DNA of 64,000 nucleotides from the NCBI GenBank assembly GCA_963714525.1, contig CAVQPB010000001.1:21495-85494 (forward strand). The letters are read 5' to 3'. This document shows positions 31,354-64,000 of the stretch, in pieces. The stretch's first letter is position 1. The number at the start of each line of letters is the position of its first letter. The translations under genes and the position numbers were made by a program. The stretch is from an uncultured Pseudomonadota bacterium. Its GTDB lineage: Bacteria; Pseudomonadota; Gammaproteobacteria; Burkholderiales; JALYOK01. The notes beneath the pieces are model-generated. The model did not search any database. It was not told the origin of the DNA and saw only the letters and a program-made list of their open reading frames with translations.

Positions 31354-31370
31354 AGGTAATGGAGGACTTA

Positions 31371-46916: not shown

Positions 46917-47220
46917 CGTTTTCCTTCCAGATGCGTGGTGACGCAATCAATCCGATCATAATTAAGTCTTGACTACGACAAAAAAAGCTCGTAGATTCCG
47001 TCCTGTCACGCTAATGTAGTATTGCATTAGTATTCTTCACGAAAGCGATAAGCCGGATCGCAGCAACAAAAATAATTCTCCCGGTGTAGCGTTAATTTAA
47101 ACTTTTTATACGTCGGGCTGGTGAGTCATCGCGCTGCTCCGATCGTTAGTATTGTCCATCGGGTTCTGGCTGGGGGCGAATGACTATGAAAAGTCATCAA
47201 CTAATAACAGGAGCCCGGCC

Positions 47221-49428: not shown

Positions 49429-49460
49429 GTGAATTGCTTTAATCAAATGAGGAGATCTAA

Positions 49461-51650
49461 ATGCCTGCACTTGTACAGCGCGCGATCCCTAAAGTAATAT
49501 TCCTTGCGCTCACCATAATGTTTTTTGCACAGCAAGCCACTGCACAAGTTGCATCGCCTTTCCCAGTGGCTAATCCGAGCTTCGAAGGAAGTTATGGCGC
49601 GCTTGCGGACTGCAGCAATATCACCGGCGAAGTGGCCATGGGTTGGAGCGATAATACCTGCTGGGACGAGCGCCGCCCAGTGATACGCTATGCACGGGAT
49701 ACGGTCAACCCGCATAGCGGTACCGCATCGCAAAAAATTACCTTGGTGAGCGGCAGCCGCGTGCAGTTTTCTCAGTTTCTGTCGCTGGCTTTTGAGGCAG
49801 GTAAGCGCTATTCGACTTCCGTTTGGATGCGTGCGCAGGCGCCGATGTTCGCGACCATCGTGTTGCGGCAATCAGGTCCGCCGTACACCGGTTACACCAG
49901 CAAGTTAATCCGGCTCTCGACAGCCTGGACGCGGTTTGATCTCGACGGTTTCACCGATAGCACGGACATTGTGCTGCTTGTTATCGCGGAGTCGCCGGGT
50001 ACTTTTTGGATCGACGACGTTGCGATCCAAAGCGAAGCCTCAAACGCTCTCAGTCCCTCGCCGCCGACAACTGCCGTGCCGCGCGCTTATTTCGCCATGC
50101 ATTTCAATCGTCTCGATACGCCTTGGCCGCGGGTAAATAATGCCATCGGTTCGGTCAGGATTTGGGACGCGGGAGAAAATCGTAACGGATCCGGCACGGG
50201 CGCGCAATGGTCGGAAATAAATGCCGTGGCGGGCAGCTTCGATTGGAGCGGCCTCGACGCACGCGTTGCGGCGGCGCTAGCGAATAACGCCGATATCGTT
50301 TACACGTTGGGTGGCCGCACCCCGCAATGGGCTTCCGCCCGGCCCGATGTATTTAGCCCCTATGGGCCTGGTCAATGTGCCGAACCTAAGAGCGACCAAG
50401 TATGGCAAGACTGGGTGCGAACCATCGCCACGCGCTACAAAGGGAAAATCAAACTTTGGGAGGTGTGGAACGAGCCTGATATTGCCGATTTCTACTGCGG
50501 TTCGCCCGACAAACTCGTGGATCTCGCACGGCAAGTCTACGCTATCGTCAAACAAGTCGATCCCACCAACCGCGTATTGTCTCCGGGCTTTAGCGGTTAT
50601 CAAGGCCCAGGGTATCTAGATTATTATTTAGCGAAGGGTGGGGCGCAGTACGCGGATATCTTGAGCTATCACTTCTACGTCGATACGCCCGAGCAAAACG
50701 CGGGAGGACGCATGGCAAATCTCCGGTCCACGATTCAGCGCTATGGTGCGCAAGCCAAACCGCTGTGGAATACCGAACAGGGCTGGATCGAAATTCCGAC
50801 CCCGACGCCGATTCCACAGGCGACGGCTGCGGCCTATGTCGCTCGCACCTACCTGCTGAATTGGGCCTACGGTATCGGGCGTTACTACTACTACACTTGG
50901 GATAATCAATGGAACCGCTTTCAGTTTGTTCAGGCCGATGGCTTGACCTTGACGCCTGCCGGAGTTGCCTACCGTGAAGTGGCGCAGTGGATGACAGGGA
51001 AGGTCATGGAGTCGCTCAGCAGCGATGTGAACGGCACTTATGTTGCAACGTTGCGCGACACCGGTGGCAAAAAGTTGCGTGTGCTGTGGAACCCGCGGCA
51101 AAGTGTGCAATTCGCGCTCCCCGCAAGTTGGGGCGTTAACCAGCAACGAAACCTTGCTGGCGCCCTGGTGAATTTGACCGGAAAGACGAGTGTCGCAATC
51201 GGTGCGTCACCGGTCTTGCTCGAGCAAGCCGCAGCGTCCGGAACCGAAATCATACTGGATAATCTGTTGGCCGGCGGACGTGATGCCACGCGCAGTTCTA
51301 CCGGCACCTGGTGTCAATCTATCGCAGCCAATAAATACGGCGCAACCTCGCTCTACAGTTGTGGCGCCTCGACTGACACCTACCGCTGGACGCCGAACTT
51401 GCCGAAAGCCGGTAGGTATGAAGTCTACGTCTGGTGGGCAAGCAACCTCAATCGCTCGACCCGCGTTCCGATCAGTGTGGTTTCGGCCACGGGATCGGTC
51501 AGTAAAATCGTCGACCAGAAAACCACAGGGGGTAGTTGGGTTCTACACGGCATCTATAGCTTTACCGCGGGTACGACGGGCTACGTGCAAGTGAGCGATG
51601 TCAATGGCCAGGCGGGTGCCGATGCGGTGAAATTCGTAGCGGTACCATAG
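49461..51650 (+). CDS. Secreted glycoside hydrolase (clan GH-A-like, WEVWNEPD acid/base motif) with N-terminal CBM-like domain and the same ~125-aa C-terminal module
   Basis: Signal peptide. PSFEGS...WIDDVAIQ reads as a CBM4/9-like jelly roll. The catalytic (beta/alpha)8 has ...KLWEVWNEPD.... C-terminal module at ~51247-51647 (EIILDNLLAGGRDATRSSTGTWCQS...YEVYVWW...VQVSDVNGQAGADAVKFVAVP). Confidence 0.7.
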   Translation: MPALVQRAIPKVIFLALTIMFFAQQATAQVASPFPVANPSFEGSYGALADCSNITGEVAMGWSDNTCWDERRPVIRYARDTVNPHSGTASQKITLVSGSRVQFSQFLSLAFEAGKRYSTSVWMRAQAPMFATIVLRQSGPPYTGYTSKLIRLSTAWTRFDLDGFTDSTDIVLLVIAESPGTFWIDDVAIQSEASNALSPSPPTTAVPRAYFAMHFNRLDTPWPRVNNAIGSVRIWDAGENRNGSGTGAQWSEINAVAGSFDWSGLDARVAAALANNADIVYTLGGRTPQWASARPDVFSPYGPGQCAEPKSDQVWQDWVRTIATRYKGKIKLWEVWNEPDIADFYCGSPDKLVDLARQVYAIVKQVDPTNRVLSPGFSGYQGPGYLDYYLAKGGAQYADILSYHFYVDTPEQNAGGRMANLRSTIQRYGAQAKPLWNTEQGWIEIPTPTPIPQATAAAYVARTYLLNWAYGIGRYYYYTWDNQWNRFQFVQADGLTLTPAGVAYREVAQWMTGKVMESLSSDVNGTYVATLRDTGGKKLRVLWNPRQSVQFALPASWGVNQQRNLAGALVNLTGKTSVAIGASPVLLEQAAASGTEIILDNLLAGGRDATRSSTGTWCQSIAANKYGATSLYSCGASTDTYRWTPNLPKAGRYEVYVWWASNLNRSTRVPISVVSATGSVSKIVDQKTTGGSWVLHGIYSFTAGTTGYVQVSDVNGQAGADAVKFVAVP

Positions 51651-51720
51651 CGGATAACTCGCAACGATGCCGTGCCGCACATGGTCGGTGTTGCGTTTAG
51701 ATAGTTTTGGGGAGAAAAGG

Positions 51721-51984
51721 ATGAGACGGGCATTTAAGATTTTGTCGAGTATAAGTGCGCTGCTGTTTTTATCGATTCTAACTTTCGGTCACGCTTCAGC
51801 GGTCGAAATTATTCTCGATAATGCCGCCCTAGGCGTGCAAGATACAGTAGGTGGCAGAACGTTCACAGGCAAGTGGTGTACCTCCATCGCGACCGCTAAG
51901 TTTGGCGCGAATTCCTTTTACTCCTGCGGTAGCGGTCCCGATACTTATCGGTGGACACCGAAAATTATCGTTGCCGGATCCTAC
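51721..51984 (+). pseudogene. Fourth member of the module family (signal peptide + module only), truncated after ~55 module residues by the IRt of the transposon
   Basis: MRRAFKILSSISALLFLSILTFGHASA then VEIILDNAALGVQDTVGGRTFTGKWCTS...DTYRWTPK. The reading frame then runs into the transposon IR (tgtcgttttcagaagacg...). Confidence 0.6.
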
Positions 51985-52127
51985 TGTCGTTTTCAGAAGA
52001 CGATTGCACCAATTATCTGGACGTAACGCCCGGAGTGCAGTCAACTCCTGATAGCCAAGTATCAGAAGTCATCTTCACCAATCTCGACTATGCTCAATAC
52101 TCGTGTGCACCAAAGCGAGGTGAGAGC

Positions 52128-52491
52128 ATGGCGTCAGACACTTCATTGATCGCCGAGCAAGGCGTGGCCACACTGCCCGATGCGGCATGGGCGCAAGCCC
52201 GGCAACGGGCGGAATTCATCGGGCCGCTGGCAGCCCTTGATGTGGTCGGGCATGAAGCTGCCGATGCCGCTGCTCACGCGCTTGGTCTGTCTAGGCGGCA
52301 GGTGTATGTCCTGATCCGCCGTGCCCGGCAAGGTTCGGGGCTTGTGACGGACTTGGCTCGCAGCCGATCTGGCGGAGGCAAAGGCAAGGGACGCTTGCCG
52401 GAATCGGTCGAGCGCATCATCCGTGAGCTGCTGCAAAAGCGCTTCCTGACCAAGCAGAAACGCAGCCTGGCGGCGTTCCACCGCGAAGTAG
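52128..52491 (+). pseudogene. tniA: tniA 5' segment (Mu-like DDE transposase), interrupted by an IS21-family insertion
   Basis: MASDTSLIAEQGVATLPDAAWAQARQRAEFIGPLA...LSRRQVYVLIRRARQGSGLV...LTKQKRSLAAFHREV, then the IS end. Confidence 0.8.
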
Positions 52492-52723
52492 TGCGTATTT
52501 CACGCGAACGTGACCGTTGATTTAGCGGTGTGACCGGTCATTTCAAAAATATCGTGACCGGTGAATTCAGAAATAGCGTGACCGGTTATGGATAGATTTT
52601 TGAAATAAAAGCCACGCTGTAGCGTGGCGAATTTTGTTAAGGGGAAAGTGCGAAGGTAATTGAAGATATTTGGTAGCCTGCGCTCCATTTCGAGGAGCGA
52701 GGATGCCCAGTCGGAGAATTACC

Positions 52724-54248
52724 ATGCGCAAGATCAAAGAAGTATTACGGTTACGCTACGCCTGCGGGCTGTCGCTGGAACAAATCGCCCGCGCCCAGAA
52801 TCTGTCCAAAGGCGTGGTCGCCAAATATTTGAAGCGCGCTGCCGCCGCCGGGATCGATGGCGCGATCGCGCAGACCCTGGCTGAAGCCGATTTAGTCGAG
52901 CGGCTCAAACCGAGTAACGACACCCGCGACAGTCGAGTTTCACCGCCCCCGATTTCGCCCAGATTCACCAAGCCCTGAAGCAATCGAGCGTCACGTTGCA
53001 ATTGCTGTGGGAAGACTACCGTGATCAGTGTCCTGGTCGCCCTTACCGCTACACCAGCTTCTGCGTCCAATATCGAATCTTTGCCAAAGCCCTGAAGCGC
53101 TCCATGCGCCAAGTCCACCGCGCCGGTGAGAAACTATTCGTTGATTACGGTGGCCAGACTCTTTCGGTCATTGACCCGGCCAGCGGCGAAATCCGCCGCG
53201 CCCAAGTGTTCGTCGCGGTGCTCGGCGCCTCGAATTACACCTATGCCGAAGCCACCTGGACCCAAACCGCCGCCGACTGGCTAAGCGCCCATTGCAGCGC
53301 ATTGGCGTATTTCGGCGGGTGTCCCGAGATAGTGGTGCCGGGCAATGCGCGCGCCTTGATTGCTGATCCGGATCGCTACGAACCTTCGCTGGGTCTCGCG
53401 CACCAAGAATGGGCGGCACACTATGGTTGCGCTGTCATTCCGGCGCGCCCGTACCGGCCGCAAGATAAAGCCAAAGTCGAAGTGGGTGTACAAGTGGTGG
53501 AGCGCTGGATTCTGGCGCGACTGCGAGCACGGCAATGTTTTAGCCTGGCCGAACTCAATGCCGCAATTTGGATGTTGTTGACCGACCTGAACCAACGCCC
53601 GTTAAGAAACTGCCGGGCAGTCGCGCCAGCGCCTTCGCTACCCTCGACCAACCGGTGCTCAAACCGTTGCCTGTAACCGTGTTTGAATTAGCGCGCTGGA
53701 AGAAAGCCCGGGTGTCAATTGACTACCACGTTGATATCGAACGTCACTATTACAGCGTGCCGCATCAATTAGTCGGCGAGTTGGTCGAGGTGCGCATCAC
53801 CGCCCGCATGATCGAATGTTTGCATCATGGCAAACGCGTCGCCAGTCATGTCAGAAGTGCCTTGCCCGGTCGCCACACCACCCAGGCGGATCACATGCCC
53901 AAGTCTCACCGCGCGCACTTGGAATGGACGCCGGGACGGTTGCTCAATTGGGCGTTGTCCATCGGTCCGGCTACTCGCGATGTCGCTCAATACCAGCTCG
54001 AATCTAAACCCCATCCGGAAATGGGTTATCGCGCCTGCTTGGGACTGATGCGCTTGGCGCGTCAATACAATCCGGCACGGTTGGAATTGGCGTGTGTACG
54101 GGCGCGGGCTTTACGGGCGATGACGTATCGCTCGGTCGCGGCGATTCTGAAGGCCGGCCTGGAGCAACAACCCTTGCCGCCACCCCGGCAAATTGATCTG
54201 GCGTTACCCGTGCACGCCAATGTGCGCGGCTCGAAGTATTACCACTAA
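52724..54248 (+). CDS. istA: IS21-family transposase IstA (two apparent frameshifts, ~52935 and ~53600)
   Basis: MRKIKEVLRLRYACGLSLEQIARAQNLSKGVV (HTH), then QLLWEDYRDQCPGRPYRYTSFCVQY...DYGG... (DDE), then a C-terminal segment. The three ORF-track pieces are contiguous in homology. The first shift is a missing g in ccggat. Confidence 0.7.
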
Positions 54249-54263
54249 CCTGAAAGGAATCTC

Positions 54264-54998
54264 ATGCTGAATCAACATACCTTGCAGTTATTAACCCAAC
54301 TCAAACTCGATGGTATGGCACGCGCCTTCGAGGAACAATCCAGCCAGACCCATGCCGCCAGTTTATCGTTCGAAGAACGCTTTGGTCTCCTGGTGGATCG
54401 GGAATTCACGCATCGCGATACGAAACGGGTTGACCGATTATTGAAGCAGGCAAAACTAAAAGTCGCGGGGGCGTGTGTAGAAGATATCGATTACCGCGCC
54501 GGCCGCGGCTTGGATAAACGGGCGATGGCCAGCTTATCGACGTGTGATTGGATCCGCCATAGGCACAGCATATTAATTGCCGGGGCGACCGGTTGTGGCA
54601 AGACGTGGCTGGCCTGTGCGTTCGGCCAGCAGGCGTGTCGTCAGGGCTTCTCGGTGCTGTATGTTCGCGTACCGCGGTTGTTCGAGGAGTTGCGTATCGC
54701 CCACGGCGACGGCAGCTTTACCCGTAAGCTCGCCGCCTTGGCGCGCACCGATGTGTTGCTGTTGGACGATTGGGGTGTGAATCCGCTGACGCAGCCGGAG
54801 CGTGCCGATCTATTGGAAATCCTGGATGATCGGGTGGCAACGCGTTCAACGATCATCACCAGTCAACTCCCGGTCGAGCATTGGCATGAGTATTTGGCCG
54901 ATCCGACGTTGGCCGACGCTATCCTGGATCGGATCGTGCATCAAAGTCATAAATTGAAACTCAAAGGCGAGTCGCTTAGAAAGCAAGAATCCGCATGA
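54264..54998 (+). CDS. istB: IS21-family helper ATPase IstB
   Basis: 244 aa. Walker A GATGCGKT and the DnaC-like AAA+ fold. Confidence 0.85.
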
Positions 54999-55136
54999 TT
55001 CCGGAAACGGCAACAACGCGCTTCGCGCACCGGTGCGTGACCGGTTAGTGTAAGTGTATCGCCTTCGCTGTCCCATCAGCACCGGTCACGTTATTTCTGA
55101 AATGATCGGTCACGTTCGCTGAAATACGCAAAGTAG

Positions 55137-56450
55137 CCGGCTTGCAAAACGCAAAAGCTGCGGGTGCCGGCGCGCAACACCATTGCCTTACGGATCGCCA
55201 ACCTCGACCCGCTCAAAACCGCTCGCCACCGGGAAGGGCAAGATGCCGCCCGCTGCCTGCAAGGTGACGGCGGGGAGCCTACTGCCGTGACCGCGCCACT
55301 CGAACAGGTGCAGATCGACCATACGGTCATTGACCTGATCGTGGTCGATGAGCGCGACCGGAAACCGATTGGCCGCCCGTACCTGACCGTCGGCCATCGA
55401 CGTGTTTACAGCGCTGCGTGCTCGGCATGGTGGTCACGCTGGAAGCGCCGTCGGCCGTCTCGGTCGGGCTGTGCCTGCGCGCATACTGCCTGCGACAAGC
55501 GTCCGTGGCTGGAAGGGCTCGGATGTAGAAGTGGAGTGGGCGAAGAGCGGCAAACCTAAGCAGCTCTACTGGACAACGCAGCCGAGTTCAAGAGCGAGGC
55601 ACTGCGCCGGGCTGCGAGCAGCATGGCACGGTTGGACTATCGCCCACCTGGGCAGCCGCACTACGGCGGCATCGTAGAACGGATCATCGGCACGGCGATG
55701 CAGATGATCCACGATGAATTGCCGGGGACGACCTTCTCCAATCCCGACCAGCGCGGGGCTTACGATTCCGAGAAGAAGGCCGCCCTGACGCTGCGTGAGC
55801 TGGAGCGCTGGCTGACATTGGCGGTGGGCACCTATCACGGCTCTGTGCACAACGGCTTGCTCCAGCCACCAGCGGCACGCTGGTCCGAGGCCATGGCGCG
55901 TGTCGGTGTGCCGGCGGTCATCACCCGCGCCACGGCTTTCCTGGTCGATTTCCTGCCGGTCATCCGCCGCACCCTGACCCGCACGGGCTTCGTCATCGAC
56001 CACATCCACTATTACGCCGATGCGCTCAAGCCGTGGATCGCGCGGCGTGACCGCTGGCCGGCCTTCCTGATCCGCCGCGACCCGCGCGACATCAGCCGCA
56101 TCTGGGTACTGGAACCGGAAGGTCGGCACTATCTGGAAATTCCCTACCGTACCTTGTCGCACCCTGCTGCCACCCTGTGGGAACAACGGCAGGCGCTGGC
56201 GAAATTGCGGCAGCAAGGGCGCGAACAGGTAGATGAATCGGCGCTGTTCCGCATGATCGGGCAGATGCGCGAGATCGTGAGCGGCGCACAGAAGGCGACG
56301 CGCAAGGCGCGGCGCGACGCGGATCGGCGCCGGCACCTCAAAGTGTCGGTTCCACCGGCCAAGCCAACTCCGCCGGAAACGGACGTTGCTAACCCGCAGG
56401 TGGACAACCTGCCACCGGCCAAACCGTTCGACCAGATCGAGGAGTGGTAG
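55137..56450 (+). pseudogene. tniA: tniA 3' segment; additionally carries several frame changes between ~55330 and 55620
   Basis: ...AQKLRVPARNTIALRIANLDPLKTA...VQIDHTVIDLIVVDERDRKPIGRPYLT [shift] ...CDKRPWLEGLG [shift] VEVEW...[shift]...LDYRPPGQPHYGGIVERIIGT...PAKPFDQIEEW. These pieces are spread over three frames (ORFs 55164, 55402, 55623). Confidence 0.75.
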
Positions 56451-56452
56451 CC

Positions 56453-57360
56453 GTGGACGAATATCCCATCATCGACCTGTCCCACCTCCTGCCGGCAGCA
56501 CAGGGCCTGGCTCGGCTGCCGGCGGATGAGCGCATCCAGCGTCTTCGCGCCGACCGCTGGATCGGCTATCCGCGTGCGGTCGAGGCATTGAACCGGCTGG
56601 AAACCCTGTATGCGTGGCCGAACAAGCAGCGCATGCCCAACCTGCTGCTGGTCGGCCCGACCAACAACGGCAAGTCGATGATCATCGAGAAATTCCGGCG
56701 CACGCATCCGGCCAGCTCAGATGCCGACCAGGAACACATTCCGGTGCTGGTCGTGCAGATGCCGTCCGAACCTTCGGTGATCCGCTTCTACGTCGCGCTG
56801 CTCGCCGCGATGGGCGCACCATTGCGCCCGCGCCCACGGCTGCCGGAAATGGAGCAACTGGCGCTGGCCTTGTTGCGCAAGGTCGGCGTGCGCATGCTGG
56901 TGATCGACGAGCTGCACAACGTCTTGGCCGGAACAGCGTCAACCGCCGGGAATTCCTCAACCTGCTGCGCTTCCTCGGCAACGAGCTGCGCATCCCGCTG
57001 GTCGGCGTCGGCACGCGCGACGCCTACCTGGCCATCCGCTCGGATGACCAGTTGGAAAACCGCTTCGAACCCATGATGCTGCCGGTGTGGGAGGCCAACG
57101 ACGATTGCTGCTCACTGCTGGCCAGCTTCGCCGCTTCGCTACCACTGCGACGGCCGTCCACGATCGCGACGCAGGACATGGCCCGCTATCTGCTCACCCG
57201 CAGCGAGGGCACTATCGGCGAACTGGCGCACCTGCTGATGGAAGCCGCCATCGCCGCCGTGGAGAGCGGCGAGGAAGCGATCAACCACCGCACGCTCAGC
57301 ATGGCCGATTACACCGGCCCCAGCGAGCGGCGACGCCAGTTCGAGCGGGAACTGATGTGA
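56453..57360 (+). CDS. tniB: TniB AAA+ transposition ATPase, with an apparent -1 frameshift near 56935 (ggaaacagc read as ggaacagc)
   Basis: ...LLVGPTNNGKS (Walker A)...VIDELHNVLAG, then in the next frame NSVNRREFLNLLRFLGNELRIPLVGVGT...RRQFERELM. Confidence 0.8.
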
Positions 57361-58574
57361 AGCCGGCACCGCGCTGGCCACTGCATCCTGCCCCCAGAGA
57401 AGGCGAAGCCCTGTCCTCATGGCTCAATCGTGTCGCCGCCTGCTACCACATGGACTTGCACGACCTACTGGAACACGATCTCGGTCGCGGCCACGTCGAT
57501 GACCTGGATACCGCACCGTCGCTGTCGCTGCTGACGGTTCTCTCGCAGCGCAGCAGCATCGAGCAGGACCGGCTGCGGTGCATGAGCTTTGCCGGCTGGG
57601 TGCCATGGCTGCTGGATAGCCTGAATGATCGGATTCCAGATGCCTTGGAAACCTATGCGTTCCAGTTCTCGGTACTGCTGCCGAAATTCCGCCGTAAGAC
57701 GAGATCGATCACAAGCTGGTGTGCCTGGCTGCCCAGCCGGCCAATCCACCGCGCCTGCCCACTTTGCCTGAACGATCCGACGAATCAAGCCATATTGCTT
57801 GCATGGAAACTGCCGTTGATGCTGAGCTGCCCACAACATGGTTGCTGGCTCGAATTCTATTGGGGCGTACCAGGGCGGCTTCTCGGCTGGGAGAACACCG
57901 ACACTTCGCCGCGCGCGGTCACCGAAGCGATTGCGGCGATGGATCGACGTACCTGGCAAGCGCTGACAACAGGATACGTCGAGTTGCCGCGCAGGCGCAT
58001 CCATGCTGGCCTGTGGTTCCGGCTACTGCGCACATTGCTCGACGAGTTGAACACCCCACTCTCTCTGTGCGGAACGTTCGCGCACAGTATCCGCTATGTC
58101 TGGGAACGTTGCGGACATCCGCTGCGAGCGGGGCAAAGTCTGTGGCGTCCCTACGAAATTTTGCCCCTAGAGGTCCAGTTGCAAATGCTGGAAGCAGCGG
58201 CCACTGCCATCGACCTGATCGAATCGAAGGTGTTGAGTCCCGGCGGAAAACAGGCGGCATTGTTCTTGTCGGAACCGCAGACCGCGTTCACCGACGGCAT
58301 GCCGGTGGTTGAGCGAAAGGAGGAACCAGTCAATTATTGGCAGAAAGCGATCAAAGCAATTGAAGAGGCCATCGTCGAGGCGCGGCACAACCCCGTGACG
58401 GCCCGCTCCCTGTTTGCGCTGACCTCCTATGGTCAGCGCGACCCCGAGTCTTTGGAGCGCTTGCGCATCACGTTTGCCAATGAGGGCATCCCCCCGGAAT
58501 TTCTGTCATATTATGAGCCTGACGGCCCCTTTACATGTCGTAGACTAAATGACGGGTTAAGTGACAGTTTTTGA
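57357..58574 (+). CDS. tniQ: TniQ transposition target-selection protein
   Basis: GTG start overlapping the tniB stop (ATGTGA). VKPAPRWPLHPAPREGEALSSWLNRVAACYHMDL... has high similarity to Tn5053 TniQ as recalled. Confidence 0.8.
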   Translation: MKPAPRWPLHPAPREGEALSSWLNRVAACYHMDLHDLLEHDLGRGHVDDLDTAPSLSLLTVLSQRSSIEQDRLRCMSFAGWVPWLLDSLNDRIPDALETYAFQFSVLLPKFRRKTRSITSWCAWLPSRPIHRACPLCLNDPTNQAILLAWKLPLMLSCPQHGCWLEFYWGVPGRLLGWENTDTSPRAVTEAIAAMDRRTWQALTTGYVELPRRRIHAGLWFRLLRTLLDELNTPLSLCGTFAHSIRYVWERCGHPLRAGQSLWRPYEILPLEVQLQMLEAAATAIDLIESKVLSPGGKQAALFLSEPQTAFTDGMPVVERKEEPVNYWQKAIKAIEEAIVEARHNPVTARSLFALTSYGQRDPESLERLRITFANEGIPPEFLSYYEPDGPFTCRRLNDGLSDSF

Positions 58575-58634
58575 CGACTAGAACTTTCTGGCCCACACTG
58601 TCACATAATCGAACGTATATGTGACAGGTGCGAC
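58575..58634 (+). promoter_or_regulatory. res (resolution) site region upstream of tniR
   Basis: Palindromic tgtcacataatcgaacgtatatgtgaca between tniQ and tniR, in the position of the Tn5053-family res. Confidence 0.55.
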
Positions 58635-59249
58635 ATGCTGATTGGCTACATGCGGGTATCGAAAGCGGACGGCTCCCAGGCGACTGACTTGCAGCGCGAT
58701 GCGCTGGTTGCCGCCGGAGTCGATCCGATACATTTTTATGAAGACCAAGCATCCGGCAAGCGCGAGGACCGGCCAGGCTTGGTGAGCTGCCTGAAGGCGC
58801 TCCGACCAGGCGACACGCTGGTGGTGTGGAAACTGGACCGGCTCGGGCGTGACTTGCGCCACCTCATCAACACAGTGCACGACCTTACCGCACGCGGCAT
58901 TGGCCTCAAGGTATTGACCGGCCACGGCGCGGCCATCGACACCACGACGGCCGCCGGTAAGCTGGTTTTCGGCATCTTTGCGGCGTTGGCAGAGTTCGAG
59001 CGCGAGTTGATCGCCGAGCGCACCATTGCAGGCTTGGCGTCGGCACGGGCGCGCGGTCGAAAAGGCGGCCGGCCGTTCAAAATGACCGCCGCCAAACTGC
59101 GTCTGGCGATGGCGGCGATGGGGCAGCCGGAAACCAAGGTCGGCGATCTATGTCGGGAACTCGGCATCACCCGGCAGACTCTGTACCGGCATATTTCACC
59201 CAAGGGGGACTTGCGCCCCGATGGAGCGAAGTTGCTGTCGCGAACCTAG
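58635..59249 (+). CDS. tniR: Serine recombinase/resolvase TniR
   Basis: MLIGYMRVSKADGSQATDLQRDAL... with the catalytic Ser and a C-terminal HTH. Near-identical to TniR of Tn5053 as recalled. Confidence 0.9.
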   Translation: MLIGYMRVSKADGSQATDLQRDALVAAGVDPIHFYEDQASGKREDRPGLVSCLKALRPGDTLVVWKLDRLGRDLRHLINTVHDLTARGIGLKVLTGHGAAIDTTTAAGKLVFGIFAALAEFERELIAERTIAGLASARARGRKGGRPFKMTAAKLRLAMAAMGQPETKVGDLCRELGITRQTLYRHISPKGDLRPDGAKLLSRT

Positions 59250-59283
59250 CCATCATCATCCACAAGAAATCATAAGGCCGACC

Positions 59284-59532
59284 ATGCCGTCATGTACTTT
59301 TTGCGAACGAGACAACCTTGACCTAATTGCGGAGAATTCGCTTGCATTCGCCGTCAGAGATCGATTTCCCGTGCGAAGGCTCCATTCGCTTGTTCTACCA
59401 AAGCGGCACCTTGGTAATACCTTCGATCTGACGGAAGCAGAACTGGTGGCGATTTTCGATCTCGCAGGCCAAGTGCGAGCGCTGATCCTCATGGAGGATT
59501 CTAGCGTTGGTAATTTCAACTTCGCTAAATGA
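59284..59532 (+). pseudogene. HIT-family protein fragment (N-terminal part only; histidine-triad motif missing)
   Basis: MPSCTFCERDNLDLIAENSLAFAVRDRFPVRRLHSLVLPKRHLGNTFDLTEAEL...; it ends before HxHxHxx. Confidence 0.55.
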
Positions 59533-59621
59533 GCCCATCCCCTCGAAAAGGTAAAACGAGCGGATTTTCCCTCTGAGACAGAGGATTTGAGGCCAAAAAC
59601 GTAAACCCGCTTCAGGCCTTA

Positions 59622-59796
59622 GCGGGTCTTCGGGTTGCGACCTAACCGTGGTGTGCGGTGAATGACGGTAAAACTACCGAATCCCCTGATCTCAATCCGA
59701 TGCCCACGCACCAGCGCGTTATTCATCGTATCCAAGATGGCCAAAACGGCAGCCTCAGTATCCTTCTGCGTCAACTGACTGAACCGTTCGGCTAGG
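59622..59796 (-). pseudogene. ihfB/HU-family (integration host factor beta-like) gene fragment, truncated at both ends
   Basis: Reverse-strand translation gives ...LAERFSQLTQKDTEAAVLAILDTMNNALVRGHRIEIRGFGSFTVIHRTPRLGRNPKT, then an immediate stop. It lacks a start codon, and its 5' end abuts the IS5-family end. Confidence 0.5.
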
Positions 59797-59848
59797 GAAA
59801 CTCTGCAAAACCTGCCAACGGTTTTGAGGTGAGAAACGTTGTATATCG

Positions 59849-60250
59849 ATGAAACAAACCACGCTCGCCACTGCTGGATTCGGACTGGTCACCAAGCGCA
59901 CGCGCAAACGCGTGTTCCTCGACGAGATGAACCTGGTGGTTCCGTGGACCGAATTGGTGGCATTGATTACGCCCCATTCGCCAGTGGCTGGAGCCAAAGG
60001 CGGACGCCCGCCATTTGCAGTTGAAACCATGCTGCGCATTCATTTCTTGCAGCAGTGGTTTGGACTGAGTGATCCGGCTATGGAAGAGGCGCTGCACGAT
60101 GTGTCGCTGTATTGCGAGTTCGCGCACCTTGACCCGGGCGCCAGCCGCTTGCCTGATGAATCGACCATTCTGCGGTTTCGCCACTTGCTCGAACAGTATG
60201 GTCTGAGCATGCAGATCATGGCGGCCAGCTATGGAACTCATAGCGAGTGA
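59849..60250 (+). pseudogene. IS5-family transposase, N-terminal ~130 aa only (truncated where lysR begins)
   Basis: MKQTTLATAGFGLVTKRTRKRVFLDEMNLVVPWTELVALITPHSP...ETMLRIHFLQQWFGLSDPAMEEALHDVSLY...DESTILRFRHLLEQYGLSMQI. Confidence 0.65.
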
Positions 60251-61146
60251 TGGTTGTTCAAGGCGGCACAGGCTTTGCGTACGGTGTCTGCGAGAACGCC
60301 CTGCAGGGGGTGCGGAGCTGCGATGTCCGGAAGAAGCATATTCACCTGGTAACCGATGGCAACGGTAAGCGGCCGCACTACTAGGTCCGGTCCGCTGAGT
60401 TCCAGTGCGGTGAGCGGGTTTACGATGGCAACGCCCAGGCCCTGACGCACCATGGCGCAGACGGCCACTGCGCTCGTGGTTTCAAGCAGGGTTGCGCGAT
60501 GTACTTTAGCGTCCTCGAACATCGCATCAATGGCGGTTCGATACGGGTCGCCAACCGCGAGACTGATGAAGCGCTCGCCTGTAAAGTCGCGTGGTTGCAG
60601 TCGCGCCTTGCGGCACAGGCTGTGATCACGTGGCAAAACGGCCACTTCATTGACTTTCAGCAAGGGCTGCAAGGCAACTCCAGCAGGTGCCTCTTGGGTT
60701 TCACTAAGTCCCAGGTCAAAACGCTGTTCACTCATGGCTTGCTCCAGCCAGGGCGACTCTATGGGATGCACGCTGACTCCTAGTTCAGGATGTGCATGTG
60801 AGAGATATACCAGTGCGCGGGGTACCAAGGCATGGGCCAATGCCGGCAAACACGCAATGCGCAAGCGACCTGTCACTTGCGTGCGCAATTCGCTGGCGCG
60901 CGCTGCGATCTGTTCCAAGCCTATAAACGAGCGTTCTACTTCCTGCATCAGCGCAAGTGCCCGCACGGTAGGGCGTAATCGGCCCCGCACCCGGTCAAAA
61001 AGGTTAAACCCCATTAACTGCTCCAGACGCCCCAGCTCGCGACTCAAAGTGGGCTGGCTTGACGCGCACGCGTCAGCTGCACGCCCCAGGTTGCCGTGCA
61101 GCATGATGGCGCGAAACATCGTCAGCTGGCGATGGGTTAGATTCAT
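60238..61146 (-). CDS. lysR: LysR-family regulator, LysR (lysA activator)-like
   Basis: Divergent from lysA. ...SQPTLSRELGRLEQLMGFNLFDRVRGRLRPT... aligns position for position with E. coli LysR as recalled. Confidence 0.75.
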   Translation of the reverse strand: MNLTHRQLTMFRAIMLHGNLGRAADACASSQPTLSRELGRLEQLMGFNLFDRVRGRLRPTVRALALMQEVERSFIGLEQIAARASELRTQVTGRLRIACLPALAHALVPRALVYLSHAHPELGVSVHPIESPWLEQAMSEQRFDLGLSETQEAPAGVALQPLLKVNEVAVLPRDHSLCRKARLQPRDFTGERFISLAVGDPYRTAIDAMFEDAKVHRATLLETTSAVAVCAMVRQGLGVAIVNPLTALELSGPDLVVRPLTVAIGYQVNMLLPDIAAPHPLQGVLADTVRKACAALNNHHSL

Positions 61147-61215
61147 ATCAATATTGAATAGCTATACAACAAGAATAGCATTGATTGAATTGACTATGAA
61201 GGGGATCATCCACCC

Positions 61216-62466
61216 ATGAACCCTTTTACTCCCGCTACCATCGCTCCTTTGGCCCAGCAGTTCGGTACCCCGCTGTGGATCTATGATGCCGCCACCATTA
61301 CGCGCCAGATTGCCGCTCTGCGGTTGTTTGACGTAGTGCGTTTCGCTCAGAAAGCCAACTCCAATACACACATCCTTCGCCTCATGAAGCGACAGGGCGC
61401 AGTGGTGGACTCGGTGTCTTTGGGTGAAATCGAACGCGCGTTGGCTGGTGGTTTTACGCCGGGCTTGCACAACGGGCACGCAGACATCGTGTTCACGGCC
61501 GATCTGCTGGACCGCGCTACGCTTGCGCGCGTGGTGGAACTCAATATTCCCGTGAACTGCGGCTCCATGGACATGCTGGACCAATTGGGTGCGGTCAACC
61601 CGGGGCACCCGGTGTGGCTACGCATCAACCCAGGTTTCGGGCATGGCCATTCCAAGAAAACAAATACCGGTGGCGAGCATAGCAAGCATGGCATCTGGCA
61701 TGGCGACCTAGTACGCGCCTGCGAAAAGATCAAGTCCAACGGCCTGGCCTTGCAGGGCCTGCACATGCACATCGGCTCAGGCGTGGACTACGCGCACTTG
61801 CAGGAAGTGTGCGGTGCCATGCTGAAGCTGGTAGAGGTAGTGAATGCGCAGGGTTTGGACCTGCACGCCATCTCCGCGGGCGGCGGTCTGTCCGTTCCCT
61901 ACCAGGCCGGTGAACCCACGATTGATACGGCGCACTACTTTTCATTATGGGATGCAGCGCGCCATGCCGTGGAACAACTGCTGGAGCACCCAGTGAAACT
62001 GGAAATAGAACCGGGCCGCTATTTAATGGCCGAGTCCGGCGTGCTGGTCACCGAGGTACGCGCCACGAAGCAACAGGGCGCCAACCATTTTGTGATGGTG
62101 GACGCCGGCTTCAGTGATCTGGCTCGCCCGGCCCTATACGGCGCCTACCACGGCATGGAGTTAATCCGCTCTGATGGCACAGCGGTTAATGGCCTGCAGT
62201 TTGACACGGTGGTTGCCGGACCTCTGTGCGAGTCGGGAGATGTGTTTACGCAGGGAGACGGTGGCGTGGTGTTGCACCGGTCCTTGCCGCAGGCGCAGGT
62301 GGGAGATCTGCTGGTGTTGCACGACACCGGTGCGTATGGCGCCTCCATGTCATCGAACTACAACGCGCGCCCGCTGATTGCCGAAGTGCTGATGGAAAAT
62401 GGTGAGCCCCGGCTTATTCGACGAAGGCAGACGGTGGCTGAGCTGCTCGCGCTGGAGGCGGTGTAA
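61216..62466 (+). CDS. lysA: Diaminopimelate decarboxylase
   Basis: ...FDVVRFAQKANSNTHILRLM...VDSVSLGEIERALA...NTGGEHSKHGIW...HMHIGSGVDYAHL...CESGDVFTQ...HDTGAYGASMSSNYN... This is ~65-70% identical to E. coli LysA by recalled alignment. PLP-fold type III. Confidence 0.9.
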   Translation: MNPFTPATIAPLAQQFGTPLWIYDAATITRQIAALRLFDVVRFAQKANSNTHILRLMKRQGAVVDSVSLGEIERALAGGFTPGLHNGHADIVFTADLLDRATLARVVELNIPVNCGSMDMLDQLGAVNPGHPVWLRINPGFGHGHSKKTNTGGEHSKHGIWHGDLVRACEKIKSNGLALQGLHMHIGSGVDYAHLQEVCGAMLKLVEVVNAQGLDLHAISAGGGLSVPYQAGEPTIDTAHYFSLWDAARHAVEQLLEHPVKLEIEPGRYLMAESGVLVTEVRATKQQGANHFVMVDAGFSDLARPALYGAYHGMELIRSDGTAVNGLQFDTVVAGPLCESGDVFTQGDGGVVLHRSLPQAQVGDLLVLHDTGAYGASMSSNYNARPLIAEVLMENGEPRLIRRRQTVAELLALEAV

Positions 62467-63374
62467 GGCAGCACACAATGGCCTTAGCAACGTAAATCTG
62501 AGGCGGCGGTAGAACGTTTTGACTGATTGCGACATGGTTCTGGCGCCACCAGTGCGAACCACACACAACCTGCTCTACTCCTTGCACACACTGCGCTAGT
62601 CCCGGTGCGGCGCAGGTAGATAAGGCCACCCCTCACGTTGGCGCCGTGGCTTTCATCCACCGGTCCGGCTCCAGCCCGAACGGGCATACGCAATTCAAAT
62701 GTGGGTCGATGGAGTTACGGACAACCGCAAGACTTCCAGCTACCTGCCGTTCGCGACCATCTCATTACGCTGCCTTGCGGGTTTACATTCTTCTCGATAC
62801 CAGACCTTCATTTCGGCTGCTTGAATAGTGGAGTTCAATCAAAAAGGTCCCCCTGCCAGGCTGCGTGGCGTTGCTCCAGAACACCGAGTCGGCATATCTT
62901 GCAGCCAAGGCCCCCAGGTCAATGCTCTGCTCATCGTCGCTGAATTCGAACGACCCAAACATGTTCACGTGCTGCCACGCTACCGGCGAAATCCCTTGAA
63001 TGAATGCAATAGCATCCAGATCCCCGGCCGCCACCTTCTATTCGTATAGCGTTTGGTATTCCTATCCACCAATGGAAGCACCAAAGTGCGGAATTACACT
63101 GAGTTGACCACTGGATTGCATCTGAGCTGACCAGACAAAATCATCAACTTGACCGGTCCAAGTCGAACCGCCGCAGTAGGCCAGTGAACTCAATCGATCG
63201 TATAGATGAAGAGCCTTGGCTCACATGACGATCTGAATAAGTTCAAGTGCGGGGACGAATACAAGCCCGACGACTACGTCGGCAACTGTTTCGTACCCGC
63301 ACCCATCTTCACATGCGGCATTGTTAGTGCAGCCCACTTCTAAACTTACGTGCAGTCGTCTTCTGAAAACGACC

Positions 63375-64000
63375 AGCACGGCACAAAGAAGCTATCGATA
63401 TCGTCTTGGGTTACCGCATCCAACGCAGGAGGATTCCAGCGCGGCTTTTGATCTTTTTCTACGATCAGTGCCCGCACGCCTTCGATGAAATCGCCTTGGT
63501 CAAAGCAGGCGTGCACCATGTTGAGTTCCATCCGGAAGCAATCGGCCAAAGACATTCTGCGGCCGCGATGCAATTGTTCGAGGGTGACGGACATCATCAA
63601 CGGCGATCGTTTTTCGAGACCGGCTAAGGTTTGGGACGCCCAATCGGTCAAGCTGGTCTGCGATTCGTTCTTAAGCGACGCGACGATCTCAGGCAACCTC
63701 GGTTCGCTAAAATGAATATCGATCGCATCCGTGTAGGGCGCCAACACGGCAGGGGTCAAAGGTTCACTGGCCAGCGTGTTAAGCGCCATTTCGATATCCC
63801 GCTCGTGATCGTCGGACCATTCGATATCCTTGAGACGATCGTCGAGGGCGACGACCGAGTAAGTATCCAGATAAATATCGCCAAGCCCGACGGCGAGAAT
63901 ATCCGGCGCTTTGATGTCTTTGCCAGTGATTCCAAGATAAATCCCCATCGCTCCCTCGAGACGCGACAAAAAATAACTAGCGCCGACATCGGGGAATAAT
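63375..64000 (-). CDS. Enoyl-CoA hydratase/isomerase-family protein (3-hydroxyisobutyryl-CoA hydrolase-like), partial: N-terminus beyond window end, last ~10 codons replaced by the transposon IRi
   Basis: ...MGIYLGITGKDIKAPDILAVGLGDIYL... and the C-terminal HIBCH-like region ...ALDAVTQDDIDSFF then run into IR-encoded VPCWSFSEDDCT*. Confidence 0.65.

What the first reader, a model, noticed from the sequence alone, without database searches (positions are those of the whole stretch)
59284..62466. Transposon cargo is a junkyard of gene fragments plus an enterobacterial-like lysR-lysA pair
Downstream of tniR the cargo holds, in order: the 5' third of a HIT-family gene; a reverse-strand ihfB/HU fragment lacking both ends; the N-terminal ~130 codons of an IS5-family transposase that stops exactly where lysR ends; then a complete divergent lysR-lysA pair. 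By recalled alignment LysA here is ~65-70% identical to E. coli LysA (FDVVRFAQKA.SN.HILRLM, VDSVSLGEIERALA, NTGGE.SKHGIW). That is unusually high for a genome whose other genes look beta/delta-proteobacterial. This suggests lysA was captured from a gamma-proteobacterium and moved on a Tn402-like vehicle, an uncommon type of cargo for this transposon family.
Basis: partly seen in the sequence, partly recalled or inferred. Interest (0 to 1): 0.55.

Follow-up and report, generated by a model that had tools for sequence, protein, structure and literature searches.

The report
Decayed transposon carrying mobile lysine gene pair
A broken-down Tn5053/Tn402-type transposon in this Burkholderiales chromosome carries an intact lysR-lysA gene pair (the last step of lysine synthesis plus its regulator) that came from Rhodoferax-like betaproteobacteria, not from enterobacteria, and that circulates widely on transposons, small plasmids and genomic islands.

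Summary
Window 51985-63374 is an 11.4-kb Tn5053/Tn402-family transposon with 25-bp inverted repeats and genes in the order tniA-tniB-tniQ-res-tniR. Its cargo holds a HIT fragment, an ihfB fragment and an IS5-family transposase N-terminus, then intact divergent lysR-lysA.

The inferred gammaproteobacterial origin is wrong, however. Every Comamonadaceae chromosomal LysA examined is 65-70% identical to E. coli LysA. The mobile clade (94-99% identical copies) nests inside Comamonadaceae (93/100 bootstraps), closest to Rhodoferax-like sequences (80-82%), and most of those chromosomes carry the same divergent lysR.

A clean 7.05-kb version (IRt-tniABQR-lysR-lysA-IRi) sits in P. aeruginosa plasmid pOXA-198 with a 5-bp target duplication, and also in Extensimonas. 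The 2.24-kb lysR-lysA core also occurs at 89-98% nucleotide identity in Zoogloea, Thiomonas, Azonexus, Thiobacillaceae and Acinetobacter plasmids. Both genes are under purifying selection.

The window copy looks immobile: an IS21-family element and indels disrupt tniA, tniB is frameshifted, and there is no target duplication. This is a new member of a known kind, of moderate interest.

The parts
51985..52009 (+). IRt, the 25-bp terminal inverted repeat next to tniA (TGTCGTTTTCAGAAGACGATTGCAC)
   Evidence: The same repeat bounds the pOXA-198 and Extensimonas copies.
52128..52491 (+). 5' part of tniA, cut by the IS21-family insertion
   Evidence: 83% aa identity to the intact Extensimonas TniA (residues 33-156).
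52492..55130 (+). IS21-family insertion sequence, 2,639 bp. Ends are TGCGTATTTCA...TGAAATACGCA. The 6-bp target duplication AAGTAG lies at 52486-52491 and 55131-55136. istA is split into three ORFs; istB (54264-54998) is intact.
   Evidence: (I1, I2, I9)
55131..56450 (+). 3' part of tniA, with single-base indels between 55392 and 55628 and an in-frame stop at 55557-55559
56444..57360 (+). tniB (AAA+ ATPase) with a 1-nt deletion near 56931 that splits it into two frames
   Evidence: The Extensimonas orthologue matches Pfam TniB PF05621.
57357..58574 (+). tniQ, intact (405 aa)
   Evidence: Pfam TniQ PF06527.
58598..58627 (.). 30-bp palindrome CTGTCACATAATCGAACGTATATGTGACAG just upstream of tniR, a putative res crossover site. 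Identity to the pOXA-198 and Extensimonas copies jumps here from about 80-88% to 99% or more.
   Evidence: Sequence; identity profile and alignment. The res function is inferred.
58635..59249 (+). tniR, a serine resolvase (204 aa), intact and 99.5% identical to the pOXA-198 and Extensimonas TniR
59284..59532 (+). HIT-family gene fragment (N-terminal part, no His-x-His motif). It begins exactly at the breakpoint relative to the clean 7-kb transposon.
59619..59774 (-). Internal fragment of an IHF-beta (ihfB) gene, lacking both ends
59796..60221 (+). Left end and N-terminal third of an IS5-family transposase gene (ORF 59849-60250). Its junction with lysR is shared with copies outside any transposon (L003, L012, and in diverged form L017).
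60238..61146 (-). lysR, a LysR-type activator of lysA (302 aa), intact
   Evidence: dN/dS 0.11-0.30 among mobile copies.
61147..61215 (.). 69-bp AT-rich divergent control region with a Shine-Dalgarno sequence (AAGGGGA) before lysA. It is conserved within the module.
   Evidence: The consensus promoter scan found nothing here, so the regulatory role is inferred.
61216..62466 (+). lysA, an E. coli-type diaminopimelate decarboxylase (416 aa), intact
   Evidence: dN/dS mostly 0.07-0.44.
62598..62696 (+). 33-codon remnant of an IS91-family transposase (residues 160-192 of 527, 73% aa identity)
62861..63049 (-). C-terminal 63 codons of a Tn3-family transposase (residues 964-1026 of 1035, 59% aa identity, with one internal stop)
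63125..63237 (.). Non-coding stretch that directly follows lysA in Acinetobacter copies (79-86% identity). It is part of the ancestral downstream flank.
63350..63374 (-). IRi, the 25-bp terminal inverted repeat at the cargo end. Its outermost base is C rather than A.

Best explanation
Window 51985-63374 is a degenerate copy of an unnamed Tn5053/Tn402-family transposon. Its cargo is a self-contained lysine-biosynthesis module: lysA (diaminopimelate decarboxylase, which converts meso-DAP to L-lysine) and its divergent LysR-type activator.

Origin (shown). The pair was taken together from the chromosome of a Rhodoferax-like member of the Comamonadaceae.

Capture and trimming (inferred). The pair became linked to IS5-, IS91- and Tn3-family elements, whose remnants still flank it, and ended up between tniR and IRi of a Tn5053-family element. 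The window preserves the longest and oldest version of that cargo. The 7.05-kb transposon in pOXA-198 and Extensimonas is a streamlined derivative that lost 59285-60221 (deletion at a CCA microhomology) and 62549-63302.

Spread (partly shown, partly inferred). The element moves by TniABQ-mediated transposition, shown by the 5-bp duplication in pOXA-198. The tniR-cargo-IRi arm also appears to swap between different tniABQ backbones at the res site; the identity jump is shown, the mechanism is inferred. The 2.24-kb core has further moved into plasmids and islands by illegitimate recombination.

State of the window copy. It can no longer transpose on its own. tniA is split by an IS21-family element and carries indels, tniB is frameshifted, and there is no target duplication. 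lysR and lysA are the only cargo genes still intact. This suggests they are kept by selection as a working, DAP/lysine-regulated source of lysine (inferred).
For: Transposon identity:
- 25-bp inverted repeats.
- TniA, TniB, TniQ and resolvase domains in the family order.
- tni genes 86-93% identical to Tn5053/Tn402-type elements in thousands of plasmids.

Same cargo on the same vehicle elsewhere:
- pOXA-198: 7,047 bp with target duplication GGCGC.
- Extensimonas: 7,049 bp with all four tni genes open.

Origin:
- Top non-mobile LysA hits are Rhodoferax-like and other Comamonadaceae at 80-82%.
- The mobile clade is monophyletic in 100/100 bootstraps and nested in Comamonadaceae in 93/100.
- 46 of 56 Comamonadaceae loci have the divergent lysR, up to 80% identical.
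- All Comamonadaceae LysA are 65-70% identical to E. coli LysA.

The window cargo is ancestral:
- The IS5-fragment/lysR junction is shared with L003, L012 and L017.
- The downstream 883 bp reappear elsewhere as nested deletions. L003 even retains the 138 bp next to IRi plus 12 bp of IRi.

Arm swap: identity to pOXA-198 is 78-93% across tniABQ and 99% or more from the palindrome at 58598-58627 onwards.

Function:
- LysA passes the TIGR01048 equivalog cut-off and LysR passes PRK11013.
- The best solved structure is E. coli LysA 1KNW at 603 bits, and the catalytic motifs align.
- dN/dS is 0.07-0.3 for most pairs in both genes.
- The related plasmid gene A1S_3463 is transcribed in A. baumannii ATCC 17978 (PMC3758355).

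Decay of the vehicle.
Against: - No 5-bp target duplication in the window, and the two flanks are different truncated genes. The insertion history is therefore unresolved, and no empty site was found.
- The frameshifts in tniA, tniB and istA could be assembly errors, because several backbone genes are also split.
- The tree is neighbour-joining on 25-37 taxa with a single E. coli root. No Enterobacterales other than E. coli and no other E. coli-type LysA holders were sampled.
- The true donor species is not identified; the gap between 82% and 94% is filled only by anonymous metagenome contigs.
- No enzymatic, regulatory or fitness data exist for this module. One lysA pair (window vs L009) gives dN/dS of 1.0 on very few changes.
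- In the Thiomonas MAG the module joins a different tniR (89% aa) through a different junction, so a single-capture story is too simple.
Confidence: 0.78

Rival explanations
1. One reading: lysA was captured recently from a gammaproteobacterium, probably an enterobacterium, and moved into this betaproteobacterium on the Tn402-like element.
For: - LysA is 65% and LysR 46% identical to the E. coli proteins, with the same divergent gene arrangement.
- Near-identical copies do occur in Pseudomonas and Acinetobacter plasmids.
- E. coli LysA is by far the closest solved structure.
Against: - No gammaproteobacterial chromosomal LysA came closer than the Comamonadaceae ones at 80-82%.
- All Comamonadaceae LysA share the same 65-70% identity to E. 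coli.
- The mobile clade nests within Comamonadaceae in 93/100 bootstraps.
- The gammaproteobacterial copies sit on plasmids or small contigs and are the more diverged members of the mobile clade (89-93% nucleotide identity).
Confidence: 0.04
2. The lysR-lysA pair is a neutral hitchhiker. It is intact only because it arrived recently, and it gives the host nothing.
For: - P. aeruginosa and A. baumannii already have a chromosomal lysA (own knowledge), so the plasmid copies are redundant there.
- No phenotype is known, and no paper discusses it.
Against: - Everything around the pair has decayed (HIT, ihfB, IS5, IS91 and Tn3 fragments, tniA, tniB, istA), yet both genes remain full-length.
- dN/dS is 0.07-0.3 across copies whose synonymous divergence reaches 0.35-0.42.
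- The flanks have been trimmed to within about 3-16 bp of both stop codons in at least 8 independent contexts without ever entering the genes.
- The 90%-identity clusters hold 1,244 LysA and 1,130 LysR sequences.
Confidence: 0.15
3. The pair was first mobilised from the donor chromosome by an IS91-family (ISCR-like) element through rolling-circle, one-ended transposition. The Tn5053-family element is only a later carrier.
For: - A 33-codon IS91-family transposase remnant lies 131 bp downstream of lysA, on the same strand.
- This downstream stretch (62467-62747) is shared with the Thiomonas and SOY_64 copies and so is old.
- Rolling-circle capture would need no second IS copy.
Against: - Only 33 codons survive.
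- No oriIS or terIS sequence was identified.
- IS5- and Tn3-family remnants are equally close, so any of them, or plain illegitimate recombination, could be responsible.
Confidence: 0.25
4. The region is native chromosomal DNA or an assembly chimera, and the inverted repeats do not delimit a real mobile element.
For: - No target duplication.
- The flanks are unrelated truncated genes.
- The assembly shows many frameshifts.
Against: The same IRt...IRi unit with the same tniR-lysR-lysA arm occurs in two independent public records, once with a perfect 5-bp duplication. All window proteins tested come from one 784,776-bp contig.
Confidence: 0.02

Closest known systems
Tn5053 (mer) and Tn402/Tn5090 (class 1 integron), the founding members of the Tn5053 family (Kholodii et al. 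1995, cited from own knowledge)
   Same: - 25-bp terminal repeats of the TGTCGTTTTCAGAAGACG type.
- tniA-tniB-tniQ, then a res-like site, then tniR, read inwards from IRt, with cargo between tniR and IRi.
- tni DNA is 86% identical to such elements in many plasmids.
- The pOXA-198 relative has a 5-bp target duplication.
   Different: - The cargo is an amino-acid biosynthesis gene with its regulator instead of a mer operon or an integron.
- The window copy has tniA and tniB disrupted and no target duplication.
Unnamed 7.05-kb transposon in P. aeruginosa plasmid pOXA-198 (NZ_MG958650) and in Extensimonas perlucida HX2-24 (NZ_VMYE01000033)
   Same: Same IRs, and the same tniR-lysR-lysA-IRi arm (97.6-99.4% nucleotide identity). 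LysA is 98.6% identical.
   Different: - Their tniABQ backbone is only 78-93% identical to the window's.
- They lack the IS21-family insertion, the 937-bp HIT/ihfB/IS5 junk and the 754-bp IS91/Tn3 junk.
- The Extensimonas copy has all four tni genes open.
E. coli K-12 lysR-lysA locus (LysA structures 1KNW and 1KO0)
   Same: - Divergent arrangement.
- LysA 65% and LysR 46% identical.
- Both pass the same NCBIfam equivalog models.
- PLP-lysine and catalytic motifs are conserved.
   Different: - The control region is 69 bp here, against 121 bp in E. coli.
- The window pair is mobile rather than chromosomal.
- Its real ancestry is Comamonadaceae.
lysR-lysA on small Acinetobacter plasmids (pAB1 of A. 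baumannii ATCC 17978, CP000522; also A. kyonggiensis, A. gerneri and A. seifertii plasmids). 'Diaminopimelate decarboxylase' is listed in the Acinetobacter pan-plasmidome (PMC2848654).
   Same: Same module at 90-93% nucleotide identity, with LysA 95-96% identical. A 110-bp stretch of the window's downstream junk follows lysA directly in the A. rudis and A. gerneri copies.
   Different: - No tni genes.
- Carried on Rep3/MobA plasmids.
- The LysR C-terminus is altered (304 aa).
Chromosomal lysR-lysA of Rhodoferax, Curvibacter and other Comamonadaceae
   Same: Closest non-mobile relatives: LysA 78-82% and LysR up to 80% identical. The same divergent pair is present in 46 of 56 loci.
   Different: About 20% protein divergence. 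No flanking sequence is shared with the window. The exact donor is not identified.

Membership tests
Tn5053/Tn402-family transposon | 25-bp terminal inverted repeats of the TGTCGTTTTCAGAAGACG type | tested here: met
   51985-52009 and 63350-63374, 24 of 25 complementary. None of 100 shuffles reached the observed 3 matches of the 17-mer.
Tn5053/Tn402-family transposon | tniA (DDE / Mu-transposase C), tniB (AAA+), tniQ and tniR (serine resolvase), in this order inwards from IRt | tested here: met
   Pfam Resolvase, TniQ, TniB and Mu-transpos_C/rve on the window ORFs or their intact Extensimonas orthologues. 86-93% nucleotide identity to annotated tniABQR sets. In the window, tniA and tniB are disrupted.
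Tn5053/Tn402-family transposon | res site upstream of tniR | tested here: inconclusive
   A 30-bp palindrome at 58598-58627, with further TGTCAC/GTGACA motifs, lies between tniQ and tniR. The similarity break falls there. It was not compared with the experimentally defined Tn5053 res.
Tn5053/Tn402-family transposon | 5-bp target-site duplication | tested here: not met
   Window flanks are cctac and agcac. The feature is met in the pOXA-198 copy (GGCGC on both sides) and not met in Extensimonas. In the window this points to a later rearrangement, not to non-membership.
Tn5053/Tn402-family transposon | Ability to transpose (cointegrate formation and resolution) | not testable with these tools
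   Predicted to be lost in the window copy: IS21-family insertion, indels and a stop codon in tniA, and a frameshift in tniB.
Diaminopimelate decarboxylase LysA (TIGR01048; E. coli type) | Score above the curated equivalog cut-off, with both PLP-decarboxylase domains | tested here: met
   403.6 bits against a cut-off of 297.9. Pfam Orn_Arg_deC_N and Orn_DAP_Arg_deC are both present.
Diaminopimelate decarboxylase LysA (TIGR01048; E. coli type) | Conserved PLP-lysine and catalytic motifs of the solved E. coli enzyme | tested here: met
   FAQKA, HMHIGSG, EIEPGR, GPLCESGD and DTGAYGASMSSNYN align identically with E. coli LysA. 1KNW is the top hit among solved structures at 603 bits.
Diaminopimelate decarboxylase LysA (TIGR01048; E. 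coli type) | meso-DAP decarboxylase activity | not testable with these tools
   Needs complementation of a lysA mutant or an enzyme assay.
LysR, the lysA activator (NCBIfam PRK11013) | Score above the equivalog cut-off, and divergent position next to lysA | tested here: met
   350.7 bits against a cut-off of 288. Divergent with a 69-bp spacer. 46% identical to E. coli LysR.
Gammaproteobacterial (enterobacterial) origin of the cargo | Nearest non-mobile relatives are gammaproteobacterial | tested here: not met
   The nearest are Comamonadaceae at 80-82%, against E. coli at 65-66%. The mobile clade is nested in Comamonadaceae in 93/100 bootstraps.
IS21-family insertion sequence (the element inside tniA) | istA (HTH, rve, Mu-transposase C) followed by istB, terminal repeats starting TG, and a short target duplication | tested here: met
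   Pfam and NCBIfam hits. Terminal repeats TGCGTATTTCA(C)GCGAACGTGACCG and a 6-bp duplication AAGTAG. istA is split into three ORFs.
ISCR/IS91-type rolling-circle capture of the cargo | IS91-family transposase with oriIS next to the captured DNA | tested here: inconclusive
   Only a 33-codon remnant is present. No oriIS or terIS was identified.

The most novel reading that the evidence does not exclude
A housekeeping biosynthetic pair behaves like a resistance gene. A 2.24-kb lysR-lysA module from Comamonadaceae has recently swept through wastewater-type and clinical Proteobacteria from several orders, on Tn5053-family transposons, small plasmids and islands.

The likely reason is that lysA is the single lysine-specific step in any bacterium that already makes meso-DAP for its cell wall. 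One small module can therefore create or boost lysine prototrophy. Another, still unknown, benefit of draining DAP into lysine is also possible.

The very tight, repeatedly re-cut boundaries could alternatively reflect a mobilisation mechanism that has not been recognised.
Probability: 0.25. Interest if true: 0.6.

Novelty: new member of a known kind. Interest (0 to 1): 0.4.

Why it matters
- It corrects a tempting inference. High identity to an E. coli protein does not show an enterobacterial source, because the E. coli type of LysA/LysR is the normal chromosomal type in Comamonadaceae.
- It documents a Tn5053-family transposon whose cargo is an anabolic gene with its own regulator, not mercury or antibiotic resistance.
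- It shows the same 2.24-kb module scattered across environmental betaproteobacteria and clinical Pseudomonas and Acinetobacter plasmids, under purifying selection. This gives a tractable case for asking why a 'core' biosynthetic gene is selected as mobile DNA.
- The window preserves the least-trimmed version of the cargo, so it serves as a fossil record of how the compact 7-kb transposon was assembled.
- The sharp similarity break at the putative res site is a clear example of module exchange between transposon backbones.

Tried and rejected
- Codon usage and GC3 of lysA against 24 backbone genes do not discriminate.
- A second lysA is absent from the 64-kb window. The rest of the host genome could not be reached. 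Exact-match look-ups of window proteins found no indexed contig, although the protein sequences are in the collection on a 784,776-bp contig.
- Empty-site reconstruction failed. A metagenome scan with the right-flank enoyl-CoA hydratase fragment found only distant relatives and one 35-aa edge match.
- Host taxonomy could be narrowed only to an uncultured Burkholderiales / 'Pseudomonadota bacterium' MAG lineage.
- Literature searches returned nothing on this transposon: Tn5053+lysA, pOXA-198, diaminopimelate decarboxylase+tniQ, Tn402+diaminopimelate, and plasmid lysA+Zoogloea. Only passing mentions of plasmid-borne lysA in Acinetobacter turned up.
- No tRNA, riboswitch or other Rfam RNA is present in the cargo. 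The consensus promoter scan found nothing in the lysR-lysA spacer.
- A phage vehicle is rejected. The one IMG/VR hit is a Mu-like phage end inserted into a copy of lysA, not a phage carrying it.
- No homologues of the HIT and ihfB fragments were found next to lysRA in any other locus, so their source remains unknown.
- An integron-cassette or IS-like structure for the 2.24-kb core is rejected by eye. It has no terminal repeats, and its breakpoints are nested rather than identical.
- The first bootstrap attempt timed out and was redone with a faster distance calculation.

Full report
**What is there**

The region belongs to an 11,390-bp element bounded by 25-bp inverted repeats at 51985-52009 and 63350-63374 (TGTCGTTTTCAGAAGACGATTGCAC, 24 of 25 complementary). 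The 17-nt core matches nowhere else in the window, and none of 100 shuffles reached the observed number of matches.

Reading inwards from the left repeat, the genes are tniA, tniB, tniQ and tniR. Their domains are DDE / Mu-transposase C, Pfam TniB, Pfam TniQ and serine resolvase. The DNA is 86-93% identical to annotated tniABQR sets in thousands of plasmids. This is the Tn5053/Tn402 family.

A 30-bp palindrome, CTGTCACATAATCGAACGTATATGTGACAG (58598-58627), lies between tniQ and tniR, where the family's res site is expected (the expected position is from my own knowledge of Kholodii et al. 1995).

**The cargo, piece by piece**

- HIT-family N-terminal fragment, 59284-59532. It matches Pfam HIT positions 7-58 of 98 and has no histidine triad.
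- Internal IHF-beta fragment on the reverse strand, 59619-59774, matching model positions 18-66 of 95.
- Left end and first third of an IS5-family transposase gene, 59796-60221, matching model positions 1-100 of 285.
- Complete lysR, 60238-61146, reverse strand.
- A 69-bp AT-rich spacer.
- Complete lysA, 61216-62466.

They include 33 codons of an IS91-family transposase (62598-62696) and the last 63 codons of a Tn3-family transposase on the reverse strand (62861-63049). No tRNA or Rfam RNA is present.

**State of the vehicle**

- tniA is split by a 2,639-bp IS21-family element (52492-55130). The element has terminal repeats, a 6-bp target duplication AAGTAG, an intact istB and an istA broken into three ORFs.
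- Compared with the pOXA-198 and Extensimonas copies, tniA also has eight inserted or deleted bases between 55392 and 55628, and an in-frame stop.
- tniB has a 1-nt deletion near 56931.
- There is no 5-bp target duplication (cctac on the left, agcac on the right).
- The two flanks are different truncated genes: a secreted-protein paralogue on the left and the C-terminal part of an ECH_2 hydrolase on the right. I infer a later rearrangement.

One caveat applies. Several backbone genes are also split by frameshifts, so some of these lesions could be assembly errors.

**The E. coli resemblance**

BLASTP gives 65% identity over 405 residues to E. coli LysA, with all catalytic motifs conserved, and 46% identity to E. 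coli LysR. LysA passes the TIGR01048 equivalog cut-off (403.6 against 297.9 bits) and LysR passes PRK11013 (350.7 against 288). E. coli LysA (1KNW) is the best solved structure at 603 bits. The next diaminopimelate decarboxylases, including that of Vibrio cholerae, score below 190 bits.

**Where the pair really comes from**

A search of 5.8 billion proteins found a tight cluster at 90-98% identity. After that came hundreds of hits at about 78-82%, and every named one is Rhodoferax or another Comamonadaceae.

A scan of one genome per species gave the same picture. The 94-99% copies are in Zoogloea (six genomes), Thiomonas, Extensimonas, Azonexus, a Thiobacillaceae MAG, three Acinetobacter species and several unclassified MAGs. 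Comamonadaceae chromosomes follow at 70-82%.

In an alignment of 37 sequences, every Comamonadaceae LysA is 65-70% identical to E. coli LysA, the same as the window protein. Rooted on E. coli, the mobile clade is monophyletic in 100 of 100 bootstraps. It groups with Rhodoferax, Curvibacter, Polaromonas and Aalborgicola, to the exclusion of Hydrogenophaga and Limnohabitans, in 93 of 100. In 46 of 56 Comamonadaceae loci with enough upstream DNA, a LysR orthologue (57-80% identical) sits divergently upstream.

The pair was therefore captured as a unit from a Rhodoferax-like betaproteobacterium. The similarity to E. coli is an old property of this LysA/LysR subfamily. The gammaproteobacterial-origin inference is not supported.

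**The same transposon elsewhere**

P. aeruginosa plasmid pOXA-198 carries a 7,047-bp element IRt-tniABQR-lysR-lysA-IRi flanked by a perfect 5-bp duplication (GGCGC). This shows that the unit transposes. Extensimonas perlucida has a 7,049-bp copy with all four tni genes open.

Relative to these, the window has three extra blocks:

- the IS21-family element;
- 59285-60221, the HIT, ihfB and IS5 fragments;
- 62549-63302, which includes the IS91 and Tn3 fragments.

The extra cargo blocks are ancestral, not inserted. The IS5-fragment/lysR junction recurs in three copies outside any transposon (L003, L012, and in diverged form A. rudis L017). The downstream 883 bp reappear elsewhere as a series of nested deletions. 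L003 retains the last 138 bp before IRi plus 12 bp of IRi itself. The left deletion in the compact form occurred at a CCA microhomology. I conclude that the window holds the least-trimmed version of the cargo and that the 7-kb transposon is a streamlined derivative (inference).

**Module exchange at res**

Identity between the window and the pOXA-198 and Extensimonas copies is 72-94% across IRt-tniA-tniB-tniQ. It rises to 99% or more starting at the 58598-58627 palindrome and stays at 97.6-100% through tniR and the cargo. TniR is 99.5% identical in protein, against 78-81% for TniQ.

The discontinuity is shown. That it arose by TniR-mediated recombination at res, swapping the tniR-cargo-IRi arm between different backbones, is my inference. 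In the Thiomonas MAG the module sits behind a different TniR (89%) with a different junction, so the module has probably joined Tn5053-family elements more than once.

**The 2.24-kb core as a travelling unit**

All-against-all comparison shows that window 60227-62469 is shared at 89-98% nucleotide identity by about 30 loci, while the flanks differ almost everywhere. Contexts found:

- between guaA and the bluB-cob genes of an abundant unnamed organism;
- next to IS256-, IS110- and IS21-family genes;
- next to ResIII, Mrr, WYL, AbiEii-like or HicB genes, or a phage integrase;
- beside gyrB;
- on Rep3/MobA plasmids of Acinetobacter.

The breakpoints are nested within about 6-16 bp of the lysR stop and 3-10 bp of the lysA stop. 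This looks like repeated trimming down to the selected unit rather than a site-specific mechanism, but I could not explain it fully.

dN/dS between copies is 0.07-0.3 for most pairs in both genes, at synonymous divergence up to 0.35-0.42. The 90%-identity clusters contain 1,244 LysA and 1,130 LysR sequences. The plasmid gene A1S_3463 is transcribed in A. baumannii ATCC 17978 (PMC3758355). Plasmid-borne diaminopimelate decarboxylase is listed in the Acinetobacter pan-plasmidome (PMC2848654).

**How it most likely works**

Shown: the two genes are intact, pass the family tests, are under purifying selection, and travel with their own 69-bp control region.

Inferred from E. coli biology: LysR activates lysA when diaminopimelate accumulates and lysine is low, and LysA decarboxylates meso-DAP to L-lysine. 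Any Gram-negative host already makes meso-DAP for peptidoglycan. lysA is therefore the only lysine-specific step, and a single small module can confer or reinforce lysine prototrophy.

In the window, lysR and lysA are the only undamaged cargo genes in an otherwise decayed, immobile element. This argues that the host lineage keeps them for their function. Whether the host has another lysA could not be tested.

**Host**

All tested window proteins lie on one 784,776-bp contig held by NCBI and ENA. The closest relatives of the backbone proteins are unnamed MAGs labelled Burkholderiales or Pseudomonadota. GC3 of lysA (0.71) lies within the backbone range (0.67 +/- 0.04), so composition does not flag the transfer.

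**Verdict**

The element is a new, unnamed member of a known transposon family. Cleaner copies already sit in public records, though no paper describing it was found. Interest is moderate. The main value lies in the corrected origin, the fossil-like record of cargo assembly, the res-associated arm exchange, and the open question of why a core biosynthetic gene pair spreads so widely.

Noticed in passing
window 17023-18751; also 31271-32632, 33736-34767, 44028-44975: Backbone genes appear frameshifted as assembled. A PQQ-dependent dehydrogenase is split into two overlapping ORFs, and three other genes have garbled C-termini. Either the genome carries many pseudogenes, or a long-read assembly has indel errors. 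The same caveat applies to the tniA, tniB and istA lesions.
   Followed up: no
window 47152-51984: Three tandem secreted proteins share a roughly 90-aa C-terminal module (TEIILDN...GTWC...YRWTP). The first protein has two copies of it. The third gene (51721-51984) is cut inside this module by the transposon's IRt.
   Followed up: partly
L096 (IMGVR_UViG_3300035454_001530) 1-4668: The only 'viral' hit is a Mu-like phage end (portal, Mu F-like and terminase genes) inserted into a copy of this lysA, at the position equivalent to window 61972. The phage disrupts the gene rather than carrying it.
   Followed up: partly
L004 (Thiomonas intermedia MAG) 56-2200: A 2.1-kb miniature Tn5053-like element, with family-type IRs and its own resolvase gene, is inserted into tniA of that genome's lysRA transposon.
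   Followed up: no
L006, L009, L011, L013, L015, L019 flanks (about 70 bp left and 50-170 bp right of the module): One sub-lineage of the module carries extra flanking sequence with hairpin-forming repeats (AAAGCTGCCATC...GATGGCAGCTTT on the left, CTGCCGTTCA...TGAACGGCAG on the right). These travel with the module into different contexts, and their nature is unknown.
   Followed up: no
window 63375-63384 vs L001 9828-9837: The 10 bp just outside IRi are similar in the window (agcacggcac) and in pOXA-198 (ggcgcggcac), although the surrounding genes are unrelated. This could be target preference or chance.
   Followed up: no
L097 (P. aeruginosa megaplasmid pPUV-6) 7001-18618: The closest tniABQR relatives (93% identity) carry a quite different non-classical cargo: a CerR/TetR regulator with an ABC-type efflux system. 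They lie next to a Tn7-like tnsA-tnsB-tniB set.
   Followed up: no
L001 (pOXA-198) 2813-4405: The tniA reading frame of the pOXA-198 copy ends early, and the plasmid gene table lists no tniA CDS. That clinical copy may therefore also be defective, despite its intact target duplication.
   Followed up: partly
window 59524-59577: A 40-54-bp stretch between the HIT and ihfB fragments matches unannotated DNA on Polaromonas sp. JS666 and Limnohabitans plasmids at 93-95% identity. It may be a short repeat typical of Comamonadaceae.
   Followed up: no
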